Below are positions 2,288 to 62,909 of a stretch of DNA of 64,000 bases, piece after piece. The notes beneath the pieces are model-generated. The model ran no database searches and was not told the DNA's origin. It was given only the letters and a program-made list of their open reading frames with translations. Position 1 is the stretch's first letter, and every line of letters begins with the position of its first letter. A program made the position numbers and the translations under genes. The DNA is from Dehalococcoidales bacterium (GTDB lineage Bacteria > Chloroflexota > Dehalococcoidia > Dehalococcoidales > UBA5627), in NCBI GenBank assembly GCA_034429935.1, contig DAOUFJ010000023.1, positions 9,517 through 73,516 on the forward strand. Reading direction: 5' to 3'.

Positions 2288-2360
2288 GCCCCTGTAGCTC
2301 AGTTGGATAGAGCACCAGCCTCCGGAGCTGGGGGCGAGAGTTCAAGTCTCTCCAGGGGCG
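2288..2360 (+). tRNA. tRNA-Arg(CCG)
   Basis: Cloverleaf: acceptor GCCCCTG/CAGGGGC, D arm GCTC/GAGC, anticodon arm CCAGC-CTCCGGA-GCTGG, T arm GAGAG-TTCAAGT-CTCTC. CCA is not encoded. Confidence 0.95.
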
Positions 2361-5823: not shown

Positions 5824-5896
5824 CGGGGTGTAGCGCAGTTGGTAGCGCGCAGCGTTTGGGACGCTGAGGTCGGAGGTTCGAGACCTCTCACCCCGA
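5824..5896 (+). tRNA. tRNA-Pro(TGG)
   Basis: Acceptor CGGGGTG/CACCCCG, anticodon arm CAGCG-TTTGGGA-CGCTG, T loop TTCGAGA. CCA is not encoded. Confidence 0.95.
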
Positions 5897-55065: not shown

Positions 55066-57630
55066 TCAATCTGCGCCCTTTTTGTCTTTTATATTTCCGC
55101 TATCCTTATTATATTCATCCGGCTTGACGTCATTCTTCTGGATGACTTTAACAAAGGCATCCACAATATCAGGGTCGAATTGTGTTCCGGAACATCTCTT
55201 AAGCTCATCGAGTGCTTCCTGAAGAGAAAGCTGTTTACGATAAGGTCTGGGAGATACCATAGCATCGTAAGCATCGGCAACAGATAGTATCCTTGCTTCA
55301 ATGGGAATCTTCTCCCCTGTCAATCCTGCCGGATATCCCGCTCCGTCGAAACGTTCGTGATGGTGTAATATACCCGGAATGCAGCTTGTGAGATCGATGA
55401 CATGTTTTAAAATCTCTTCTCCCATTTTAGGATGTGTCTTGATAAGCTCGTTTTCATCACTGCTCAGGGAAGAGTTTTTATTCAAGATAGAATCAGGTAC
55501 TCCGATTTTGCCTATATCGTGGAGTAATCCGGCTGATCGAATACTGTTTATCTTTTCCAGGGGTAACTTCATGGATTCGGCAATTGCAATTGCATATTCA
55601 CTGACCTTCCTTGAGTGCCCGTAGGTGTAACTATCCTTGGCATCGACGGTTGCTGCAAGAGCATAGATTATGCTCAATGCTTTCGGGTTGGACACAAGTT
55701 CTGCCGAGAGCAGCGGCGCATTATTCTTTTTTATGTCGGACGACATGCAGGTGCGGTTTCTTCCCATTTGTTTTGCCCTGTATAGAGCTTCATCTGCCCG
55801 TCCGATGATCTCCTCTTTCATAACCCCGTCGTTCGGCCAGTTGGCGATTCCGAGGCTGACGGTAATCGGCATCGCTTTTAAGCTTGTCTTGGCTTCGATG
55901 GTCTTTCTGATGCGTTCTGCAACTTTATAGGCATCCTCAATACGTGCTTCGGGTAAAATAACGGCAAATTCCTCGCCGCCATACCGGAAAGCCAAATCTA
56001 TGCCGCGTATCGAGCTTTCAATATATTCTCCGACTTTTCGAAGCACCTGGTCTCCTGCCAGATGCCCGTAGATATCGTTATAAGACTTAAACAGGTCTAC
56101 ATCCATCATAATAAGGGAAAAAGTTCCGCCAAAGCGCGAATCCCTGGTAATTTCCTGGTCCAGGCGTTCGTGAAAGTGGCGGTGGTTATACAGCCCGGTT
56201 AATTCATCGGTATTGGCTCTTATTCTGGCCTGTGTATAAAGCTGTGCATTTTCTATAATGACACCGGCCTGATTGGTAATATTGGAAATAAGCTCCAGGT
56301 CCTCATGAGAGAGAATCGACTTGTTTTTCTTTTTCCCCAGAGCCAGAATCCCGATTAATTTATCACGGCTCTTGAACGGGAAGAAAAGACCTATATTGGA
56401 ATTCAGGATTTTCTCTTTTTCAGACTGCCACAATCCCCTGAACTCCGGTACGGTATCCATCTGCTCCGGGTTAAGTGGAGTGCTCTTCTTATCCATCCAT
56501 GTGATGATGGAACTATCAGGATCGAACGATATTCTTTTTAATGCCCCTTCCTGCGCGGGTTCTTTATCATCGGGATAAATATATTGTGTTTCAAAATTAC
56601 CCGTTTTGTTATCCTGAAGAATCAGACTTGCTCCGACAACGTTAAGGGCTTTTGAAGTTACGGGTAATATTTCTTTCGCCAGTTCGTCAAGATTGAGAAT
56701 ATGGCTCATTTTTTTACTAAAATTGAGAAGTTCCCGGCGGTAATCATATGTTTTTCTGTAAAACAGGTAATCTATGCTTTTGCTGACAAAATTAATCAGA
56801 GGGGATGCCAGTAATATGATACAGGTATATATAAGTGACAGGACTATGATAATGACAAACAAGGGTAATGTCGTAAAAAGTGTCGGATATGTTAAAACTA
56901 AAGCTGTCGTCAACCCAAAAAGTACGGCAATGACGATGATATACGTCAACAGTTTCCTGAAAATCATTTGTATATTAAGCAAATCAAACTTGAATATGGT
57001 ATAGGCGATTATCATGGCATTTATCAGGTTGCCGAGATGGTCAATCGGCAGTGTCTTTAATAAAGGAGTAAACGGTGTAACATAGCTTATAATCACCAGC
57101 AGACTCCATCCGACAATGAGGTACATCGTCCTGTTGCGGTCTACCGGGTCTACCGAATTCTTGTATCTTTTGTATAGCATTAATATTGTCATCGAAAGAA
57201 ACGGCACCAGTATGGCAGCTATAATGTAATCCCATGGAGCAATATCATGGTAAAGCAGGTTGTCTATAAAGTACGCATCCTTTACAACATAACCCATCAG
57301 GGAGAAAATCAAAAGAACCAGTACGATGCCGTAACCGATCAAGACGCCGATACCGGTCGGCTTATTGTTATATGCCCGTATAAAATGATAATAGGTGACT
57401 ACTACCAGCGGGATTGCCGTAATAACCAGTCCGTTCCAGAACGTAAGATATCCCGTTGAAGCGGAAGGATTGTGCAAAAGCATTACTGCTGTGAAGCTCC
57501 ATATCATAGAAGCAAAAAGGAACAGGGCAAATATTCTTTCGATGCGCTTCTTTATTTGAGGGAGTACAGATAGGAAGAGGGTTATGAAACAAATACAGCT
57601 AACAAGCGGTATGACAGCCCATAAATTCAC
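55066..57630 (-). CDS. Membrane c-di-GMP enzyme: multi-TM sensor (HisKA_7TM-like)-GAF-GGDEF-HD-GYP
   Basis: GTG start; about 9 hydrophobic helices; GAF-like segment; TDELTGLYN, DVDLFKSYND.YGH..GD, RGID (RxxD), RYGGEEF; HDIGK, HHERFDGAGYP, ADAYDAM. Confidence 0.93.
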   Translation of the reverse strand: MNLWAVIPLVSCICFITLFLSVLPQIKKRIERIFALFLFASMIWSFTAVMLLHNPSASTGYLTFWNGLVITAIPLVVVTYYHFIRAYNNKPTGIGVLIGYGIVLVLLIFSLMGYVVKDAYFIDNLLYHDIAPWDYIIAAILVPFLSMTILMLYKRYKNSVDPVDRNRTMYLIVGWSLLVIISYVTPFTPLLKTLPIDHLGNLINAMIIAYTIFKFDLLNIQMIFRKLLTYIIVIAVLFGLTTALVLTYPTLFTTLPLFVIIIVLSLIYTCIILLASPLINFVSKSIDYLFYRKTYDYRRELLNFSKKMSHILNLDELAKEILPVTSKALNVVGASLILQDNKTGNFETQYIYPDDKEPAQEGALKRISFDPDSSIITWMDKKSTPLNPEQMDTVPEFRGLWQSEKEKILNSNIGLFFPFKSRDKLIGILALGKKKNKSILSHEDLELISNITNQAGVIIENAQLYTQARIRANTDELTGLYNHRHFHERLDQEITRDSRFGGTFSLIMMDVDLFKSYNDIYGHLAGDQVLRKVGEYIESSIRGIDLAFRYGGEEFAVILPEARIEDAYKVAERIRKTIEAKTSLKAMPITVSLGIANWPNDGVMKEEIIGRADEALYRAKQMGRNRTCMSSDIKKNNAPLLSAELVSNPKALSIIYALAATVDAKDSYTYGHSRKVSEYAIAIAESMKLPLEKINSIRSAGLLHDIGKIGVPDSILNKNSSLSSDENELIKTHPKMGEEILKHVIDLTSCIPGILHHHERFDGAGYPAGLTGEKIPIEARILSVADAYDAMVSPRPYRKQLSLQEALDELKRCSGTQFDPDIVDAFVKVIQKNDVKPDEYNKDSGNIKDKKGAD

Positions 57631-57729
57631 TGCATAAATATCCTTTTATCAATAAATAAATTGAAATCTGCAAAACAGACCTTATAACAGATTAATTATG
57701 GCTATCGAAATTTGCTTTGTCAATAGAAG

Positions 57730-57764
57730 AGCGGCGGGAGGCTTTCTCCATCCCGCTGCTTTTG
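57730..57764. terminator. GC-rich hairpin between the ThiF-like gene and the c-di-GMP gene
   Basis: AGCGGCGGGA...TCCCGCTGCT imperfect stem. The T-run follows on the plus strand, so it is weak for the minus-strand transcript. Confidence 0.45.
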
Positions 57765-57784
57765 TAAAAATTGACGTAAATAAG

Positions 57785-58591
57785 CTAAATTACCGAACCA
57801 ACGACCAATTCGCGGTCAACCAGGTCGAAATAGGTATAATTTGGCGCTTTCGGCATATCCCTGCCGATAATTATATTTATAGCTTCGCTGGCAGCCTGAA
57901 TAGCCGATAACCCCGCTCCGATACATGTAGACGGGATAACGGATGTCTTCCCTTTTATAATATCATCTATTATACTTTTATCCCGGATGTATTTTGGTAT
58001 TACCGGAACGATTCTTTCCAGCGGCACCATCAAATTTTGAGGTTCGTCGACATCCACATCGACAGGCAGATTGTTATACTCTTCCAGCGTAATCCCGTCG
58101 GGGGCAAAAACCACTGTGATGGCACCGAATCCTATTGCTGTGGAAAAAAGGTAATGGATGCCCTTTTTCCTGGCTTCCCTCTGTAAAAGGATGGATTCCC
58201 TGAACAAACCGAAGTCCATTACGTCCATTATTACATCGCATCCGTCGATTAATGATTCTACATCGTATTGCGATTTAATCCCTGTCCTGGTATAAACAAT
58301 ATCTGCCTGGGGATTGATATCCTTAATCTGTTCATATATTACCTCGGCCTTGTTTTTTCCTAAGTTATTCATGGTGGAGCCGAACTGCCTGTTGAGATTA
58401 CTGGCTTCCAGGTCGCCGGGGTCGTTAATCTTCAGGTTACCCACACCCAACCTCAACAACCTCTCCGCAGCCAGCCCGCCTACGCCCCCTAAACCGGCAA
58501 TACCTATTCTGGAATTAAATATCATTTCCTGTTCGGATTCTGTAAAAAGCCCTATATTCCTGCTTGTTATTTCCCTGTATTGAGTGTTCAT
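57785..58591 (-). CDS. ThiF/MoeB/HesA-family adenylyltransferase
   Basis: SRNIG, GLGGVGG nucleotide loop, DPGDLEASNLNRQ, KNKAE; no Zn-binding CxxC pairs. Confidence 0.88.
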   Translation of the reverse strand: MNTQYREITSRNIGLFTESEQEMIFNSRIGIAGLGGVGGLAAERLLRLGVGNLKINDPGDLEASNLNRQFGSTMNNLGKNKAEVIYEQIKDINPQADIVYTRTGIKSQYDVESLIDGCDVIMDVMDFGLFRESILLQREARKKGIHYLFSTAIGFGAITVVFAPDGITLEEYNNLPVDVDVDEPQNLMVPLERIVPVIPKYIRDKSIIDDIIKGKTSVIPSTCIGAGLSAIQAASEAINIIIGRDMPKAPNYTYFDLVDRELVVGSVI

Positions 58592-58634
58592 AATTCAAAC
58601 TCCAGATGATGATTTTTCGTTATTTCGTTTTATC

Positions 58635-60278
58635 TTACGCCTCTACCTTTTCTCTGGTTGCCGTTCCCTGCTTTCTTGCTAATCTGATATCCGGTTTAAG
58701 CAGGAATTTTAATGTATCTTTCGAAGGATTGATATGCCTCGGACTAAGGTTATCCAGACCGGCACCCATTGATTGCTGTCTTTCCTTATAAGCCTTGAAA
58801 GCATTTTCAGGCAACAGGGTAATCTTGAGCGGCATCAAGCCCGTAAATGATTCCAGTTCGGAATACGGCTTATCCAGTTTTTTCAACTCATCGTGTATCA
58901 GGCTTACGATTTTTTTCTCATCCATATTGTTACCGGTTTCCGGCTCGATGTAAAGGTGGAGCGCCGGTTTGCCGTTGACCTCCTTGCAGGCAACCCAGTC
59001 ATAATAACCGATTCCTGAATTTTCTATCGATTTCCAGATTACTTTTTCGGACAATCTGGTGAACCCTGCGATATCAATCTGGTCGTCGATGCGGGTCAGG
59101 AACTTCATCTGGGGGATATCTATATTCAGTTTTTCGTTTCTGTTTGCTGTAATCTTTATCAAATGTCCCAGCCTGTAGCGTATGAAAGGACCGCCGTGCA
59201 GGCTGCTTATTACCAGTTCATAGTTGCCTGGTTTTACTTCGTCCATAAGAACTGTTTTAGGCTGATACGCCGGATTTTCAATCGATTTATTTACTTCATC
59301 CTCTGGAATGAATTCAAAGAAATTAAGATTGGGGATGAAAGTCAATCCTTCGTAGTCCCATGTTTGCATTGCAATAAATATCGCCTCGGTGCAGCCATGA
59401 AATTCCAGGGGATATCTGCCCCACATTTCCTTGATTTTTTCGCGATATACAGAACTGTCTATTCCAAAAGCAACCAGTCCCTTCAATTTCCAGATGTCTT
59501 TCGGCAACATCCGGCGTCCGGCCAGCTTGCTTCTGACGATGCCTTTCAGCAATCTTAACAATGTCTTCGGTTTTTTGACCAGCGATTTGATGTCGGTTTT
59601 GTGATTTCCTTTCCTGCTGAAACGCTCTCCTATAGCTACGGCTACACTCGACATTGCAATGCACATATCGAGCCCTTTATCCATGGCCAGGTCGAAGCCG
59701 TATTTAACCCTTTCTTCGAAGGATATGTTTTCGGCCTCTATTATCGGAGGCAGAACATCGAATAGTTCATTGGGAAAGGCGCGTGTCATGGTGCCTGTAG
59801 TATAAGGGGGAGGCGCCATCCCGTAAAAAACTTTATCCATGCCCCTTAAATTTATCTCCCCCTTGCTTTTACAGGTGGACAATATCATCATTGCGAATAT
59901 AATTCCCTCGACCTGGTCCAGTTGTCCGGCGGTAACGGGCACCCAGCGATAAGGATATTCCTCGGATTTCCCGGAAGTATATTGCCAGAGAATCGGCTTC
60001 CTGGGCAATACATCGAGGCGGCGTTTCAGCAAATAAGGAGCATAGTCCGCGTAAGTTGTCAGAGGTACAAGAGAGCGAAACTCTTCAACTGTTTCCGGTT
60101 TTACCTCTCCCATGATTGTCCTGCCCAATTCGCACTTGTTCAGCAATTCCATTTGTTCCAGTAATAACCTTTTTTGGATTTGCATAAAGTCTTCGATGCT
60201 TAAATCCAGATAACCGCAGCATCGCTGCCACAATTCGGCATTTTTCCCTTTTCTGAAGAGTTCTGCTTCAATTCCCAT
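58635..60278 (-). CDS. GH3-family adenylate-forming (acyl-amido ligase-like) protein
   Basis: Start moved to ATG 60278; VPLTTYADY, YTSGKS, FHGCTEA, NFFEFIP, YELVIS...FIRYRLGH, the GH3/ANL motif order. Confidence 0.85.
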   Translation of the reverse strand: MGIEAELFRKGKNAELWQRCCGYLDLSIEDFMQIQKRLLLEQMELLNKCELGRTIMGEVKPETVEEFRSLVPLTTYADYAPYLLKRRLDVLPRKPILWQYTSGKSEEYPYRWVPVTAGQLDQVEGIIFAMMILSTCKSKGEINLRGMDKVFYGMAPPPYTTGTMTRAFPNELFDVLPPIIEAENISFEERVKYGFDLAMDKGLDMCIAMSSVAVAIGERFSRKGNHKTDIKSLVKKPKTLLRLLKGIVRSKLAGRRMLPKDIWKLKGLVAFGIDSSVYREKIKEMWGRYPLEFHGCTEAIFIAMQTWDYEGLTFIPNLNFFEFIPEDEVNKSIENPAYQPKTVLMDEVKPGNYELVISSLHGGPFIRYRLGHLIKITANRNEKLNIDIPQMKFLTRIDDQIDIAGFTRLSEKVIWKSIENSGIGYYDWVACKEVNGKPALHLYIEPETGNNMDEKKIVSLIHDELKKLDKPYSELESFTGLMPLKITLLPENAFKAYKERQQSMGAGLDNLSPRHINPSKDTLKFLLKPDIRLARKQGTATREKVEA

Positions 60279-60379
60279 AATAATGAAAACCCCCTTTTTA
60301 ACGCCGGTTGGCACTCCGGAATTTTTTATAAATTGCACTAACTATGCCACGTTATAGCAGCTTTGGGAAGGTTTTCAAT

Positions 60380-60398
60380 ACTAGAACAATGTTCTAGT
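60380..60398. promoter_or_regulatory. Perfect palindrome upstream of the GH3 gene, candidate operator
   Basis: ACTAGAACA-A-TGTTCTAGT (9-1-9), about 100 nt upstream of the GH3 start. Confidence 0.5.
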
Positions 60399-60450: not shown

Positions 60451-60479
60451 TAAAAAACCCTCTTCATTCAAAGAGGGTT
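60451..60479 (-). terminator. Intrinsic terminator after the RHH-like gene
   Basis: Minus strand AACCCTCTT-TGAATG-AAGAGGGTT followed by TTTT. Confidence 0.75.
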
Positions 60480-60510: not shown

Positions 60511-60945
60511 TCAGGAATGCTTCCACTTAATTTTTACTTCTTTGCCGGTATCTTCCTGTGCTTCGTTTTCAAGCTTATCGAGTGTTTGGGACAGTTCTGA
60601 AAGGTCGTTTACCGCAGATTGTTTGTTAAACTCCAGACCGTACCCGATAAAGAAATCGAGGAAACTCTTCATCAGTTTCTTGGTATCTTCCTGAAAAACT
60701 GCGGCTTCTTCTCTGGTTACAAAATTCTTCTGTTTCGCTTCTACATCCTGCATAAATTGCCTGATTTCTTTGCGGAGTTGTTCGATTTCTGCTCCCGAAG
60801 TATCTTTCAATTCAGCAGGTTTCTCTGTTCCCATCTGGTCCTGAATCAAAAATTCTATGAACTCTGCCTGGGACAGGTCGCCGCGGTTTTCATTTATCTT
60901 GTTAACAATTTCAGATGGCACTATCAGCATTCTCTTATCGGACAT
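60511..60945 (-). CDS. Hypothetical protein with ribbon-helix-helix-like N-terminus and coiled coil
   Basis: GGAGGAGG RBS; RMLIVPSEIVNKINENRGDLSQAEFIEFLI fits the strand-helix-G-helix CopG pattern. Function is inferred. Confidence 0.6.
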   Translation of the reverse strand: MSDKRMLIVPSEIVNKINENRGDLSQAEFIEFLIQDQMGTEKPAELKDTSGAEIEQLRKEIRQFMQDVEAKQKNFVTREEAAVFQEDTKKLMKSFLDFFIGYGLEFNKQSAVNDLSELSQTLDKLENEAQEDTGKEVKIKWKHS

Positions 60946-61008
60946 CACAGCCTCCTCCGGTTATTTCCTCTGCTAAACTCAATTTTATTATAACACATGT
61001 ATATTCTC

Positions 61009-61284
61009 TTATATATTCCCGTCTTCTCTCAGTTCCAGGGTGGTCAGTACCGCATCTATGCTTCGCAGCAGGTTCAATCCCTTGGGGGTAACCCTGTAAG
61101 TGACAGACGGGTTCCCGATCTTGACCTTGTCCACCAGCCCTCTTTCGAGAAGGAAATTGAGGTATTTCTGAAGCTGAAAGTAGCTCATATTGACGCTATA
61201 CATCATCTCGGTTTTGCCTGCTTCGCCGAGCCTGAGCATATCTGCGATTATTTCTATGCTAGACCTTCTCCGGTCTAAATTCAT
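61009..61284 (-). CDS. Small winged helix-turn-helix protein (archaeal-type HTH_45-like)
   Basis: RRRSSIEIIADML...KTEMMYSVNMSY..L.KYL..L...GLV...YRVTPKG. Confidence 0.85.
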   Translation of the reverse strand: MNLDRRRSSIEIIADMLRLGEAGKTEMMYSVNMSYFQLQKYLNFLLERGLVDKVKIGNPSVTYRVTPKGLNLLRSIDAVLTTLELREDGNI

Positions 61285-61371: not shown

Positions 61372-62184
61372 CTATTGAATGAATCCCAGGTACCAGTTAA
61401 GGATATCGCTGCCCCAGAGGATTGTGCATATCGCCCCGATTGATAGAAATGGGCCGAAAGCAATCGATTGCTTTCGGCTTTTTTGCCTCGCTATTATCAT
61501 AAACAAAGCGACAATTCCTCCGATGATAATGGCTAAAATTATAGCAACGAATATCAGCGGATAGCCGACAGCTAACCCGATAAGCCCCACCATCTTTATG
61601 TCACCTTCCCCCATCCCTCCCCGTGATACCAGGGCAATAATTGCGAAAATAATAAATCCGACAAAGCCGCCGAGCAGTGAACTGGCAATGCCTGATGCCC
61701 ATCCGAGAGACGCAAAATGTTCGTTGATTGCCACCGACGGCGCAAAATCGAGAGAAGGTAAAAAGATACTGATGATAAATGCCGTTACAGCACTGGGATA
61801 GACCACTTTATTGAGTATAAGATGATGTTCTATATCTATAAAAAATATTATTAAAAAGATGCAGAAGTAAAATAAAACAAGCGCCAGTTCAATCCCCAAA
61901 CCATAAAAACAATATAGCAATAAAAATCCGAGCCCGGTGCATAATTCGACAAACAATATGCGTTTGGGAATGGAGGTTTGGCAATAACGGCAGCGCCCCT
62001 TCAGGGATATATAACTGAATATGGGAATCATATCTTTAAAGGCCAGACGTTTTTCGCATTCCGGACAATGGGAAGGGGGAGAAACAATGGATTGTTTTGC
62101 CGGAAGGCGGTCTATACATACATTGAGAAAACTGCCGACAACCAACCCCAGTATCAAAATTATTATTGCCAAGACTATGTCCAT
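61372..62184 (-). CDS. pilD: Prepilin peptidase
   Basis: GSFLNVCIDRLP, SHCPEC, GRCRYC, FFIDIEH, GMGEGDIKM, FGPFL. Confidence 0.95.
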   Translation of the reverse strand: MDIVLAIIILILGLVVGSFLNVCIDRLPAKQSIVSPPSHCPECEKRLAFKDMIPIFSYISLKGRCRYCQTSIPKRILFVELCTGLGFLLLYCFYGLGIELALVLFYFCIFLIIFFIDIEHHLILNKVVYPSAVTAFIISIFLPSLDFAPSVAINEHFASLGWASGIASSLLGGFVGFIIFAIIALVSRGGMGEGDIKMVGLIGLAVGYPLIFVAIILAIIIGGIVALFMIIARQKSRKQSIAFGPFLSIGAICTILWGSDILNWYLGFIQ

Positions 62185-62525: not shown

Positions 62526-62909
62526 GTGAATATAATAGGTAAACTGGCGAAAAGAGTTCACAAGAGCGAAAAAGGATTCACTCTGATAGAACTCCTGGTT
62601 GTAATTGCCATACTCGGGGTTCTTGCTGCTGTTGCCATCCCTAATATAATTGGATTGATGGATAGCGGGAAAGAGGAAGCGGCACGAACAGAGCTACAAA
62701 CTGTGTCCTTAGCGGTATCTGTATGGAAATATCAGAATCCATCCAGTACTACTTATCCAACCTTTGATGCGCTCAAATCTTATACGGATAGCAACGGGGA
62801 AGGTTTATTTACGCAGCCGCCTACATATAACTGGGTTATTAATACTTCTACGGGAGAGGTTTCTCCTGCGTCGGATAATCCAATATATACAACAACTACA
62901 ACGGGTTAA
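62526..62909 (+). CDS. Type IV pilin (prepilin with class III signal peptide)
   Basis: GTG start after GGAGGA; KG|FTLIELLVVIAILGVLAAVAIP; 110-aa mature chain with no Cys and a TTTTTG tail. Confidence 0.92.
   Translation: MNIIGKLAKRVHKSEKGFTLIELLVVIAILGVLAAVAIPNIIGLMDSGKEEAARTELQTVSLAVSVWKYQNPSSTTYPTFDALKSYTDSNGEGLFTQPPTYNWVINTSTGEVSPASDNPIYTTTTTG

What the first reader, a model, noticed from the sequence alone, without database searches (positions are those of the whole stretch)
55066..60278. GH3 ligase + ThiF adenylyltransferase + 7TM-GAF-GGDEF-HD-GYP: candidate small-molecule/c-di-GMP signalling cassette
Seen: three co-oriented minus-strand genes; the GH3-ThiF gap is only 43 nt. The c-di-GMP protein has intact GGEEF, RxxD and HD-GYP motifs behind a multi-TM input domain. 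Known: plant GH3 enzymes adenylate carboxylic acids and form amides with amino acids; ThiF/E1 enzymes adenylate carboxylates; in proteobacterial PEP-CTERM loci, N-acyl amino acid synthases occur with ThiF-like genes and 7TM PrsK-type sensors. Inference: this may be an analogous system in an anaerobic Chloroflexota, where GH3/ThiF make an acyl-amide signal and the receptor converts it into c-di-GMP changes, plausibly acting on the adjacent pili. I know of no description of this trio.
Basis: partly seen in the sequence, partly recalled or inferred. Interest (0 to 1): 0.78.

Follow-up and report, generated by a model that had tools for sequence, protein, structure and literature searches.

The report
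GH3 ligase paired with membrane sensor
A bacterial relative of the plant hormone-conjugating GH3 ligases sits beside a many-pass membrane sensor that makes and breaks c-di-GMP; the pairing recurs in hundreds of Dehalococcoidia species and in gut Clostridia, so it looks like an undescribed small-molecule signalling module.

Summary
Three co-oriented minus-strand genes encode a GH3-like ligase (58635-60278), a 268-aa ThiF/E1-like adenylating enzyme (57785-58591) and a multi-TM-GAF-GGDEF-HD-GYP protein (55066-57630). The gaps (43 and 154 nt) and catalytic motifs are as stated.

The interpretation needs re-centring. The conserved unit is GH3 plus the membrane sensor, normally with a ~190-aa ICMT/PEMT-type membrane methyltransferase that is often fused to GH3. 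In 80 Dehalococcoidia species-level loci, the sensor follows GH3 in 66 of 68 evaluable cases. The same trio occurs in Oscillibacter hominis, another Clostridia MAG and two high-GC lineages, sometimes rearranged. The homologous membrane domain carries different outputs: GGDEF-HD-GYP, NarL-type kinase, HisKA kinase or hybrid kinase.

ThiF is a lineage-restricted accessory (15/80 loci). It always lies inside the cassette, mostly where the methyltransferase is missing, as in this window. FabF and B12-radical-SAM genes are other optional inserts.

Best reading (about 0.45): the enzymes build a hydrophobic acyl-amide ligand and the adjacent receptor senses it. No product or ligand has been shown. 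Only the c-di-GMP catalytic motifs support the output; activity is untested. I found no prior description. Also new: a conserved TAGAAC-N3-GTTCTA operator-like site upstream of GH3.

The parts
55066..57630 (-). Receptor: polytopic membrane domain (about 7-8 TM, HisKA_7TM-type by homology), then GAF, GGDEF (GGEEF plus RxxD I-site) and HD-GYP
   Evidence: Pfam domains and motifs. Full-length homology to the Oscillibacter HisKA_7TM-GGDEF-HD-GYP protein: 26% identity, E 2e-93. A TM-domain profile matches sensors of other lineages. 47 of 50 relatives keep all four motifs.
57695..57723 (-). Conserved sigma-70-like promoter TTGACA-17-CATAAT for the sensor gene
   Evidence: 11 of 12 match to consensus. 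Both hexamers are invariant in 7 relatives while the flanks diverge (alignment A6).
57731..57760 (-). Terminator-like hairpin after ThiF, followed by a T-rich run
   Evidence: Sequence read. The stem is kept through compensatory changes in relatives.
57785..58591 (-). ThiF/E1-like adenylating enzyme, a lineage-restricted accessory of the cassette
   Evidence: PF00899 at 120 bits. Below the cut-off of every NCBIfam equivalog. ATP-binding residues are invariant; no conserved Cys or CxxC. Model pLDDT 89; best PDB match is AclA 9EGB, then ThiF, PaaA and MccB. Orthologues lie only between GH3 and the sensor.
58635..60278 (-). GH3-like (ANL-fold) acyl acid amido synthetase homologue
   Evidence: Pfam GH3 N and M domains. 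JAR1 is the best PDB sequence hit. Model pLDDT 87; fold hits are JAR1, GH3.5, GH3.12 and PaaK-type ligases. Motifs are TSGKS..R / HGCTE / RYRLGH.
60382..60396 (.). Inverted repeat TAGAAC-N3-GTTCTA, a putative operator about 100 nt upstream of GH3
   Evidence: The exact 15-mer occurs once per locus in 57 of 100 loci, always between U145 and PEMT/GH3. It co-occurs with the HTH45+U145 pair.
60456..60479 (-). Intrinsic terminator after the 145-aa gene; GH3 starts a new transcription unit
   Evidence: 10-bp stem plus T-run, conserved in relatives.
60511..60948 (-). Conserved 145-aa protein of unknown function (U145). The N-terminus looks ribbon-helix-helix-like (my reading of the sequence only).
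   Evidence: No Pfam or NCBIfam family. Present upstream of GH3 in 52 of 63 evaluable loci.
61009..61284 (-). Small winged-helix protein (HTH_45, Sso10a family), a conserved upstream companion
   Evidence: PF14947 at 76.8 bits. NF053610 at 64.3 bits, cut-off 60. Present in 53 of 63 evaluable loci.
61372..62184 (-). Prepilin peptidase PilD (neighbourhood context)
   Evidence: A24_N_bact and Peptidase_A24. Upstream of the cassette in 28 of 45 evaluable loci.
62526..62909 (+). Type IV pilin-like gene (neighbourhood context)
   Evidence: N_methyl motif.

Best explanation
The locus is the local form of a widespread enzyme-plus-receptor module.

Core module (shown by comparative genomics): an ICMT/PEMT-type membrane methyltransferase, a GH3-like ligase, and a sensor whose polytopic membrane domain plus GAF domain is conserved while its output is exchangeable.

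Proposed mechanism (inferred):
1. GH3 works at the membrane face. It adenylates a hydrophobic carboxylic acid, most likely a fatty-acid-like acid, and amidates it with an amino acid or amine. OlsH does this.
2. A tailoring enzyme then caps or modifies the product. In most lineages this is the membrane methyltransferase.
3. In this window's clade the methyltransferase gene is missing from the cassette and a minimal ThiF-like enzyme is present. By analogy with TcdA, MccB and PaaA, ThiF would adenylate a free carboxylate of the intermediate and drive cyclisation or a second condensation.
4. The resulting neutral lipophilic molecule is perceived by the adjacent membrane-GAF receptor.
5. Here the receptor would shift the balance between its GGDEF (synthesis) and HD-GYP (hydrolysis) activities and so set c-di-GMP levels. 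In Dehalococcoidia the likely target is the neighbouring type IV pilus genes.
6. HTH45 and/or U145 probably control the GH3 operon through the TAGAAC-N3-GTTCTA site.

Not shown: substrate, product, secretion, ligand binding, and the link to pili.
For: 1. The sensor lies downstream of GH3 and co-oriented in 66 of 68 evaluable Dehalococcoidia species loci.
2. The same PEMT-like, GH3 and sensor trio occurs in four other lineages:
   - Oscillibacter hominis, where GH3 and the sensor overlap by 4 nt.
   - A Clostridia MAG with a PEMT::GH3 fusion plus a hybrid kinase.
   - A 64% GC lineage with a HisKA kinase.
   - A 66% GC lineage where the three genes are rearranged on both strands but still adjacent.
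   Homology of all three parts was verified.
3. The homologous membrane domain carries four different outputs. This is the pattern expected of an input domain tied to its neighbours.
4. PEMT::GH3 fusions occur in two phyla. They place GH3 at the membrane and in one pathway with a lipid-type methyltransferase.
5. The only characterised bacterial GH3, OlsH, joins fatty acids to ornithine using ATP and Mg. It sits in an operon with a lipid N-methyltransferase (PMC12493201).
6. Optional FabF and B12-radical-SAM genes sit inside the cassette. This fits an alkyl-chain substrate.
7. No O-acyltransferase or alpha/beta-hydrolase appears in any context read. That argues for a single-chain product rather than a bilayer lipid.
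8. ThiF orthologues occur only inside the cassette, in three arrangements. 9 of 12 evaluable ThiF+ loci lack PEMT, against 6 of 58 ThiF- loci.
9. ThiF keeps its ATP-binding residues and has no conserved Cys or CxxC. Nothing ThiS/MoaD-like fits in the 43- and 154-nt gaps.
10. GGEEF, the I-site, HD and GYP are intact here and in 47 of 50 relatives.
Against: - No chemistry is demonstrated.
- This clade's GH3 has Lys->Arg in motif I, Tyr->His in motif II and Asp->His in motif III. ATP-dependent adenylation is therefore not assured. However, sister loci with the same cassette keep Asp (13 RYRxGD against 45 RYRxGH).
- Membrane-domain sequence types do not track which accessory enzymes are present. 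I saw no receptor-ligand co-variation at this resolution.
- In the window clade, a terminator-like hairpin and a separate promoter divide GH3-ThiF from the sensor.
- Adjacency cannot give the direction of information flow. The sensor might monitor the membrane state that the enzymes alter.
- The link to pili rests on neighbourhood in Dehalococcoidia only; the other lineages lack it.
Confidence: 0.45

Rival explanations
1. Membrane-lipid modification module with a feedback sensor. GH3 and the PEMT-like enzyme (here GH3 and ThiF) make or remodel an aminolipid or other membrane component. The polytopic sensor reads the resulting membrane state, not a diffusible signal, and adjusts c-di-GMP or a phosphorelay.
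For: - OlsH/OlsG precedent: a GH3 plus a lipid N-methyltransferase make trimethylornithine lipid.
- PEMT::GH3 fusions anchor the enzyme in the membrane.
- FabF lies in the cassette in 16 loci.
- PlsX (FA_synthesis) lies a few genes upstream in Oscillibacter.
- Membrane-domain types do not co-vary with accessory enzymes.
Against: - No second acyltransferase (OlsI, OlsA or alpha/beta-hydrolase type) appears in any of the contexts read.
- Bulk-lipid genes are not normally locked to one sensor across phyla and through rearrangements.
- Lineage-variable tailoring enzymes look more like specialised-metabolite diversification.
Confidence: 0.25
2. Protein or peptide C-terminal modification. GH3, ThiF and the ICMT-like enzyme all act on carboxylates. 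They would modify the C-terminus or an acidic side chain of a protein or peptide, such as a pilin, U145 or a small unannotated peptide. The sensor would be regulatory.
For: - ICMT enzymes methylate protein C-terminal carboxylates (family knowledge).
- ThiF-like MccB and PaaA act on peptides, and both are among the fold hits.
- B12-radical-SAM neighbours resemble RiPP methyltransferases among others.
- Pilin and PilD genes are frequent neighbours.
Against: - I noted no conserved small precursor ORF in the cassette. The gaps here are 43 and 154 nt.
- Neither U145 nor the pilus genes accompany the trio outside Dehalococcoidia.
- All characterised GH3 enzymes use small-molecule acids.
Confidence: 0.08
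3. ThiF is a housekeeping enzyme that merely landed between GH3 and the sensor. Candidates are the tRNA ct6A dehydratase TcdA, or a ThiF/MoeB sulfur-carrier activator.
For: - JGI names for homologues.
- TcdA is among the best PDB sequence hits at 57 bits.
- ThiF is absent from most cassettes.
Against: - It falls far below all equivalog cut-offs: TcdA 58 against 304, ThiF 74.5 against 275, MoeB 53 against 377.
- Orthologues down to about 51% identity lie inside the cassette in three different arrangements, including the opposite strand.
- No ThiS/MoaD-like gene, no conserved Cys, no CxxC.
- Presence is anti-correlated with the PEMT-like gene.
Confidence: 0.05
4. CBASS-like or other anti-phage defence system, built from an E1-like protein plus a nucleotide cyclase.
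For: ThiF matches the ATP-binding part of the Cap2 E1-E2 PADLOC models, best 58.7 bits.
Against: - Only about 100 residues of the Rossmann core match, with no E2 domain.
- No CD-NTase or effector is present.
- GH3, U145 and the sensor have no meaningful PADLOC hits.
- The locus is syntenic chromosomal core across species.
Confidence: 0.01

Closest known systems
OlsH-OlsG-OlsI ornithine-lipid pathway of Singulisphaera acidiphila (PMC12493201)
   Same: A bacterial GH3-like ATP-dependent ligase encoded with a lipid methyltransferase. GH3 forms an N-acyl amino acid from a free fatty acid.
   Different: - No OlsI-type O-acyltransferase here.
- A dedicated membrane sensor is always adjacent.
- The window clade has ThiF in place of a methyltransferase.
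- Motif III Asp is His here.
- I could not test whether OlsG belongs to the same ICMT/PEMT clan.
Plant GH3 acyl acid amido synthetases (JAR1, GH3.5, GH3.12)
   Same: Same fold and domain order. The enzyme output is itself a signalling ligand (JA-Ile).
   Different: - 14-17% identity in the fold-search alignments.
- Altered nucleotide-binding motifs.
- Bacterial, membrane-associated through fusion or neighbourhood.
- Genetically paired with its presumed receptor.
Operon-encoded signal-synthesis plus polytopic-receptor cassettes: ComQXPA, Agr, CqsA/CqsS, RpfF/RpfC (from my own knowledge)
   Same: Biosynthetic or tailoring enzymes sit next to a multi-TM receptor that senses a hydrophobic or modified signal in the membrane. 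The sensor domain evolves faster than the enzymes (45% against 62% mean identity).
   Different: - Unrelated enzyme families.
- The output here is a dual GGDEF/HD-GYP rather than only a kinase.
- No evidence yet that the product leaves the cell.
N-acyl amino acid synthases linked to PEP-CTERM/exosortase and PrsK (Craig, Cherry and Brady 2011; seen only as a citation in PMC4897644)
   Same: An N-acyl-amino-acid-forming enzyme is genetically linked to a multi-TM-GAF sensor. The last TM plus GAF of this sensor weakly resembles PrsK.
   Different: - The synthase there is a GNAT/FeeM-type acyltransferase, not GH3.
- PrsK equivalog not met (46.9 against 300 bits).
- No exosortase or PEP-CTERM genes seen.
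- The ThiF link in those loci could not be verified here.
Non-E1 ThiF-like adenylating enzymes: AclA (PDB 9EGB), TcdA, MccB, PaaA
   Same: Minimal Rossmann-type adenylation domain without a catalytic Cys. Best structural matches. TcdA, MccB and PaaA adenylate a carboxylate and then cyclise (family knowledge).
   Different: - 26% identity to AclA at best.
- No peptide-binding N-domain as in MccB and PaaA.
- I could not find AclA's reaction in the library.
N-acyl alanine methyl esters (NAMEs) of Roseovarius tolerans (PMC4582587, PMC11580390)
   Same: A natural N-acyl amino acid methyl ester. This is the kind of product a GH3 plus a carboxyl methyltransferase could make. NAMEs are structural analogues of AHL autoinducers.
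   Different: A chemical analogy only. No genetic link is known to me, and NAMEs are reported not to act in AHL signalling.

Membership tests
GH3 acyl acid amido synthetase family (Pfam GH3 N/M/C; ANL fold) | Sequence match to the GH3 domains above the curated cut-offs | tested here: met
   GH3_M 43.5 bits and GH3 N-domain 37.4 bits, cut-off 23.6. GH3_C is below cut-off at 18.9. JAR1 is the best PDB sequence hit.
GH3 acyl acid amido synthetase family (Pfam GH3 N/M/C; ANL fold) | Two-domain GH3/ANL fold | tested here: met
   AF2 model pLDDT 87.3, pTM 0.85. Foldseek top hits are JAR1 4epl (E 7e-20, TM 0.64), GH3.5, GH3.12, OsGH3-8 and PaaK-type ligases.
GH3 acyl acid amido synthetase family (Pfam GH3 N/M/C; ANL fold) | Three nucleotide-binding motifs: SSGTxxGxxK, YGSSE, YRxGD | tested here: inconclusive
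   All three are recognisable but altered: TSGKSEEYPYR (Lys->Arg), HGCTE (Tyr->His), RYRLGH (Asp->His). Relatives at 31-45% identity, and 13 sister cassettes, keep K and D.
GH3 acyl acid amido synthetase family (Pfam GH3 N/M/C; ANL fold) | ATP-dependent adenylation of a carboxylic acid followed by amide formation | not testable with these tools
   Needs an enzyme assay.
OlsHI ornithine-lipid pathway | GH3-like gene in an operon with an OlsI alpha/beta-hydrolase O-acyltransferase | tested here: not met
   No alpha/beta-hydrolase or acyltransferase in the window cassette or in any related context.
ThiF/MoeB/E1-like adenylyltransferases | ThiF-family Rossmann domain with the ATP-binding residues (GxGxxG, D, SNLNRQ, K, DxxD) | tested here: met
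   PF00899 at 120.3 bits. G33/G35/G36/G38, D57, N65/N67/R68/Q69, K81 and D123/D126 are invariant in 37 orthologues. Fold confirmed.
ThiF/MoeB/E1-like adenylyltransferases | Cognate ubiquitin-fold carrier (ThiS/MoaD) and a Cys or Zn (CxxC) motif | tested here: not met
   The 43- and 154-nt gaps leave no room for a small carrier ORF. No invariant Cys in alignment A5.
TcdA (tRNA ct6A dehydratase), ThiF and MoeB equivalogs | Score above the NCBIfam equivalog cut-off | tested here: not met
   TcdA 58.4 against 304; ThiF TIGR02356 74.5 against 275; MoeB TIGR02355 53.4 against 377. The best family is PRK08223 'hypothetical protein', 179 against 266.
GGDEF diguanylate cyclase | GG(D/E)EF active site and RxxD I-site | tested here: met
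   GGEEF at 551 and RGID at 542. PF00990 at 156.8 bits.
HD-GYP c-di-GMP phosphodiesterase | HD and GYP motifs in an HD_5 domain | tested here: met
   HDIGK at 704, HHE at 757, GAGYP at 763. PF13487 at 142.9 bits. Activity not tested.
HisKA_7TM (PF16927) membrane sensor domain | Match to the Pfam model over the N-terminal TM region | tested here: inconclusive
   The window protein gives no direct hit at E<=1. Close homologues carry precomputed PF16927 hits. The Oscillibacter and L098 partners pass the cut-off at 41.4 and 36.9 bits against 28.6. A profile of the Dehalococcoidia TM domains matches those partners end to end, E 1e-43 to 7e-3 at Z=1e6.
PEP-CTERM/exosortase PrsK-PrsR system | PrsK equivalog score; exosortase or PEP-CTERM genes nearby | tested here: not met
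   TIGR02916 at 46.9 bits against 300, covering only residues 259-464. No exosortase in the annotated neighbourhoods.
CBASS (Cap2 E1/E2 plus CD-NTase) | E1-E2 fusion, CD-NTase and effector | tested here: not met
   Only the E1 Rossmann core matches. No other components.
Signal-synthase plus cognate-receptor cassette (functional class) | Conserved adjacency of biosynthetic enzymes and a membrane receptor across lineages, with an exchangeable output | tested here: met
Signal-synthase plus cognate-receptor cassette (functional class) | The product is made, released and sensed by the receptor | not testable with these tools
   Needs LC-MS and receptor assays.

The most novel reading that the evidence does not exclude
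The PEMT-like/GH3 pair, with ThiF, FabF or B12-radical-SAM tailoring in some lineages, is the synthase of a previously unknown class of lipid-derived autoinducers. These would be capped N-acyl amino acids: methyl esters where the methyltransferase is present, and a cyclised (lactone-, lactam- or oxazolone-type) form where ThiF replaces it. The HisKA_7TM-GAF protein would be their receptor. This would be a new quorum- or self-sensing system. It would be shared by strictly anaerobic Dehalococcoidia and gut Clostridia such as Oscillibacter, and would feed into c-di-GMP or two-component outputs.
Probability: 0.25. Interest if true: 0.9.

Novelty: new variant of a known kind. Interest (0 to 1): 0.72.

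Why it matters
- Bacterial GH3 homologues are abundant, but only one (OlsH, 2025) has a known function.
- HisKA_7TM is a widespread sensor domain with no known ligand.
- Dehalococcoidia, which are key to organohalide respiration and subsurface carbon cycling, have no described cell-cell or lipid signalling system.
- A genetically locked enzyme-receptor pair gives a direct route to a ligand for HisKA_7TM, and to a function for a large GH3 clade and for an orphan ThiF subfamily.
- One carrier, Oscillibacter hominis, has a complete genome on record and is a named species, so I assume it is cultivable. That makes the hypothesis testable now.
- If the product is a diffusible signal, it would be a new autoinducer chemistry. 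It would also be a second case, after plants, of GH3 enzymes making receptor ligands.

Tried and rejected
- Rfam scan of the whole window for c-di-GMP or other riboswitches near the pilin and GH3 genes: only two tRNAs.
- PADLOC scan for a defence-system reading: rejected.
Cross-phylum contexts came from single look-ups instead.
- Test for receptor/enzyme co-variation: membrane-domain clusters against accessory gene content showed no clear pattern.
- A conserved GH3 C-terminal tail ([KE]EK[VI]EA) was considered as a possible ThiF substrate. It also occurs in ThiF-less loci and in only 21 of 80, so I dropped it.
- An 18-codon ORF lies in the ThiF-sensor spacer (my reading). It overlaps the terminator-like hairpin, and the spacer outside the promoter is poorly conserved, so I did not treat it as a gene.
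- Literature: no paper linked GH3 with diguanylate cyclases. HisKA_7TM is only listed as a sensor domain. AclA/9EGB could not be traced. The OlsG paper (PMC4463453) and Craig et al. 2011 (PMC3187218) are not held. Two points therefore remain unverified: whether OlsG is ICMT/PEMT-type, and whether PEP-CTERM NAS loci carry ThiF.
- No PEMT-like, FabF, B12-rSAM or kinase/regulator homologue lies elsewhere in the 64-kb window.

Full report
**1. What is in the window**

Three co-oriented minus-strand ORFs occupy 55066-60338.

- **GH3.** The upstream ORF matches the GH3 N and central domains above Pfam's cut-offs. The C domain scores just below.
- **ThiF.** The middle ORF is a 268-aa ThiF-family protein (120 bits).
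- **Sensor.** The third ORF is an 854-aa protein with about eight hydrophobic segments in its first 275 residues. These are followed by GAF, GGDEF (RGID I-site at 542, GGEEF at 551) and HD-GYP (HD at 704, GYP at 763).
- **Spacing.** The gaps are 43 nt and 154 nt.
- **Origin.** The nearest relatives are uncultured Dehalococcoidales MAGs, with GH3 at 84% identity.

**2. Transcription units**

- A strong intrinsic terminator follows the preceding 145-aa gene at 60479-60456. It is conserved in relatives.
- A hairpin followed by a T-rich run lies between ThiF and the sensor. Next comes a TTGACA-17-CATAAT promoter at 57723-57695.
- In seven relatives both hexamers are invariant while the flanks drift. 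The hairpin stem is kept through compensatory changes.
- In this clade, GH3-ThiF is therefore probably one transcript and the sensor another.

**3. Is the trio conserved?**

The GH3 protein has more than 3,600 database relatives. At least 561 GTDB species genomes encode one. I took the best 80 species loci, all Dehalococcoidia by record title apart from one MAG binned as Calditrichales. I located homologues of each window protein by tblastn. The census:

| Feature | Count |
|---|---|
| Membrane sensor downstream of GH3, co-oriented | 66 of 68 evaluable |
| ~190-aa ICMT/PEMT-like membrane protein directly upstream | 52 of 70 (downstream in 3 more) |
| HTH_45 (Sso10a-family) protein upstream | 53 of 63 |
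| 145-aa protein (U145) upstream | 52 of 63 |
| Prepilin peptidase upstream | 28 of 45 |
| ThiF | 15 of 80 |

ThiF orthologues down to about 51% identity always sit between GH3 and the sensor, in three arrangements:
- directly after GH3;
- after GH3 and PEMT;
- on the opposite strand next to a B12-radical-SAM gene.

The trio is therefore real as a cassette, but ThiF is an accessory. It is enriched where the PEMT-like gene is missing: 9 of 12 evaluable ThiF+ loci lack PEMT, against 6 of 58 ThiF- loci. This count is not corrected for phylogeny. The window has no PEMT-like gene anywhere in its 64 kb.

Other optional inserts lie between GH3 and the sensor:
- a bona fide FabF (TIGR03150, 565 bits) in 16 loci;
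- two kinds of B12-binding radical SAM enzymes in 12 loci.

**4. Beyond Dehalococcoidia**

GH3 relatives at 31-45% identity show the same partners.

- **Oscillibacter hominis (CP060490).** A 183-aa PEMT-like gene, then GH3, then an overlapping HisKA_7TM-GGDEF-HD-GYP gene.
- **A Clostridia MAG.** A PEMT::GH3 fusion followed by an overlapping 984-aa hybrid histidine kinase.
- **A 64% GC contig.** PEMT-like, GH3, then HisKA_7TM-GAF-HisKA-HATPase.
- **Two 66% GC contigs.** The three genes are adjacent but on different strands.

BLAST and a profile of the Dehalococcoidia membrane domain confirm that all three components are homologous across these lineages.

Within Dehalococcoidia, 10 of the 80 loci carry a similar membrane-GAF input on a NarL-type kinase, followed by LuxR-type regulators.

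Three features hold together: a conserved input domain, exchangeable outputs, and adjacency that survives rearrangement. Together they are strong comparative evidence that the membrane domain works with GH3 and the PEMT-like enzyme.

**5. What the enzymes are**

*GH3*
- The model is confident (pLDDT 87). It superposes on JAR1, GH3.5, GH3.12 and PaaK-type ligases.
- The three nucleotide motifs are present but altered in this clade: TSGKS...R, HGCTE and RYRLGH, against the canonical ...K, Y..(S/T)E and YRxGD.
- Sister cassettes keep Asp (13 RYRxGD against 45 RYRxGH). The substitution seems tolerated within the same genetic context, but activity must be tested.
- The only characterised bacterial GH3, OlsH, ligates free fatty acids to ornithine using ATP and Mg. 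It is encoded next to a lipid N-methyltransferase (PMC12493201).

*PEMT-like partner*
- It belongs to the ICMT/PEMT clan of membrane SAM methyltransferases. The fusion protein P0241 scores 31.7 bits on PF04191, cut-off 25.
- Weaker hits are to ICMT, MddA and LmtA.
- Fusions to GH3 occur in two phyla.

*ThiF*
- It retains every ATP-binding residue, and no Cys is invariant among its orthologues.
- No carrier-protein gene is present.
- It scores far below the TcdA, ThiF and MoeB equivalog cut-offs.
- Its best structural match is AclA from Tenacibaculum discolor (9EGB: 26% identity, TM 0.75-0.81), followed by ThiF, PaaA and MccB. I could not find AclA's reaction in the library.

**6. Mechanism proposed**

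*Shown:* a conserved enzyme-receptor module, intact catalytic motifs in the c-di-GMP domains, and membrane association of GH3 through fusion or neighbourhood.

*Inferred:*
- GH3 makes an N-acyl-amide from a lipophilic acid.
- The methyltransferase, or here ThiF through carboxylate adenylation and cyclisation or condensation, tailors it. This is what TcdA, MccB and PaaA do (family knowledge).
- The membrane-GAF receptor senses the product and sets c-di-GMP.
- In Dehalococcoidia the output probably bears on the adjacent type IV pilus genes.

No second acyltransferase appears in any context. That favours a single-chain, signal-like product over a bilayer lipid. N-acyl alanine methyl esters of Roseovarius show that such capped acyl-amino acids exist in nature (PMC4582587, PMC11580390).

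I put this reading at about 0.45. The main rival, at 0.25, is that the enzymes remodel a membrane lipid and the sensor reads membrane state. Protein or peptide modification, a housekeeping ThiF and a defence system are less likely, for the reasons given under the rival explanations.

**7. Comparison with what is known**

- The locus works like operon-encoded signal-synthesis plus polytopic-receptor cassettes (ComQXPA, Agr, CqsA/S, RpfF/C; my own knowledge).
- It resembles the OlsH/OlsG enzyme pair.
- It is a member of neither.
- The PrsK/PEP-CTERM analogy fails as membership (46.9 against 300 bits).
- NCBIfam has no model for this GH3 clade.
- Full-text searches found no description of a GH3-sensor pairing.

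I classify it as a new variant of a known kind: an enzyme-receptor signalling cassette built from families not previously seen in that role.

**8. An additional finding**

- A perfect inverted repeat, TAGAAC-N3-GTTCTA, lies at window 60382-60396, about 100 nt upstream of GH3.
- The exact 15-mer occurs once per locus in 57 of 100 fetched loci (1.39 Mb).
- It is always between U145 and the PEMT/GH3 start. In other loci the half-sites are preserved and the centre varies.
- It co-occurs with the HTH45+U145 pair: 40 of 49 loci with the pair have it, against 3 of 11 without (Fisher p about 0.001, uncorrected).
- It is a strong candidate operator for one of these two small proteins.

**9. Verdict**

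- The function remains untested.
- The comparative signal is unusually clean, and the module is testable in Oscillibacter hominis, assuming it can be grown.

Noticed in passing
window 60382-60396 (also L001:7291-7305, L026:9307-9321 and 55 other loci): Inverted repeat TAGAAC-N3-GTTCTA upstream of the PEMT/GH3 operon. The 15-mer is identical in 57 of 100 loci whose proteins are only 55-85% identical. It co-occurs with the upstream HTH45 and U145 genes and is a likely operator.
   Followed up: partly
window 57695-57760: Terminator-like hairpin with compensatory changes, then an invariant TTGACA-17-CATAAT promoter, between ThiF and the sensor. The sensor is probably transcribed on its own in this clade.
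   Followed up: partly
window 60511-60948 and 61009-61284: Two small conserved companions. One is a 145-aa protein with no family hit; its N-terminus looks ribbon-helix-helix-like by eye. The other is an Sso10a-family winged-helix protein, a family named for archaeal chromatin proteins, which is unusual in a bacterium.
   Followed up: partly
L063-L069, L071-L073, L076, L078, L079, L084, L091, L094 (e.g. L069:11769-13034): A full-scoring fabF (TIGR03150, 565 bits) is inserted between GH3 and the sensor in 16 species. I could not tell whether it is the housekeeping copy or a cassette-specific paralogue.
   Followed up: no
L027:11734-13146, L071:13037-14494, L049:5180-6667, L032:6619-8112: Two kinds of B12-binding radical SAM enzymes (BchE/HpnJ-like and PhpK-like) sit inside the cassette in 12 species, sometimes next to an opposite-strand ThiF.
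   Followed up: no
GH3 C-terminus, window 58638-58655; L016-L026 and others: A conserved C-terminal tail ...[KE]EK[VI]EA follows a variable linker in 21 of 80 GH3 proteins, regardless of whether ThiF is present. It may be a docking motif.
   Followed up: partly
L007:10637-13211 versus L008:10637-13210: The same sensor gene is called as two ORFs (678 + 170 aa, with HD-GYP split off) in one metagenome assembly and as one intact ORF (857 aa) in another. This may be a frameshift or an assembly error.
   Followed up: no
L024 (JAIWFK010000052.1): This contig carries a typical Dehalococcoidia cassette (GH3 67% identical) but is binned as a Calditrichales MAG, probably mis-binned.
   Followed up: no
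L096:3136-6149 (Oscillibacter hominis): A DUF5940 protein with a faint ACP_syn_III hit, PlsX (FA_synthesis) and a 97-aa ORF lie a few genes upstream of the PEMT-GH3-sensor trio. This is a possible lipid-synthesis neighbourhood.
   Followed up: no
L002/L003:12891-17629: In one lineage the cassette is followed by a phage-type integrase, HTH genes and an AAA_25 protein. HicAB and a TackOD1/Mrr-like gene lie among the pilin genes upstream. Mobile or defence material has inserted around a stable cassette.
   Followed up: no
window 2288-2360 and 5824-5896: Two tRNA genes are the only Rfam hits in the window. No riboswitch lies near the pilin or GH3 genes.
   Followed up: yes
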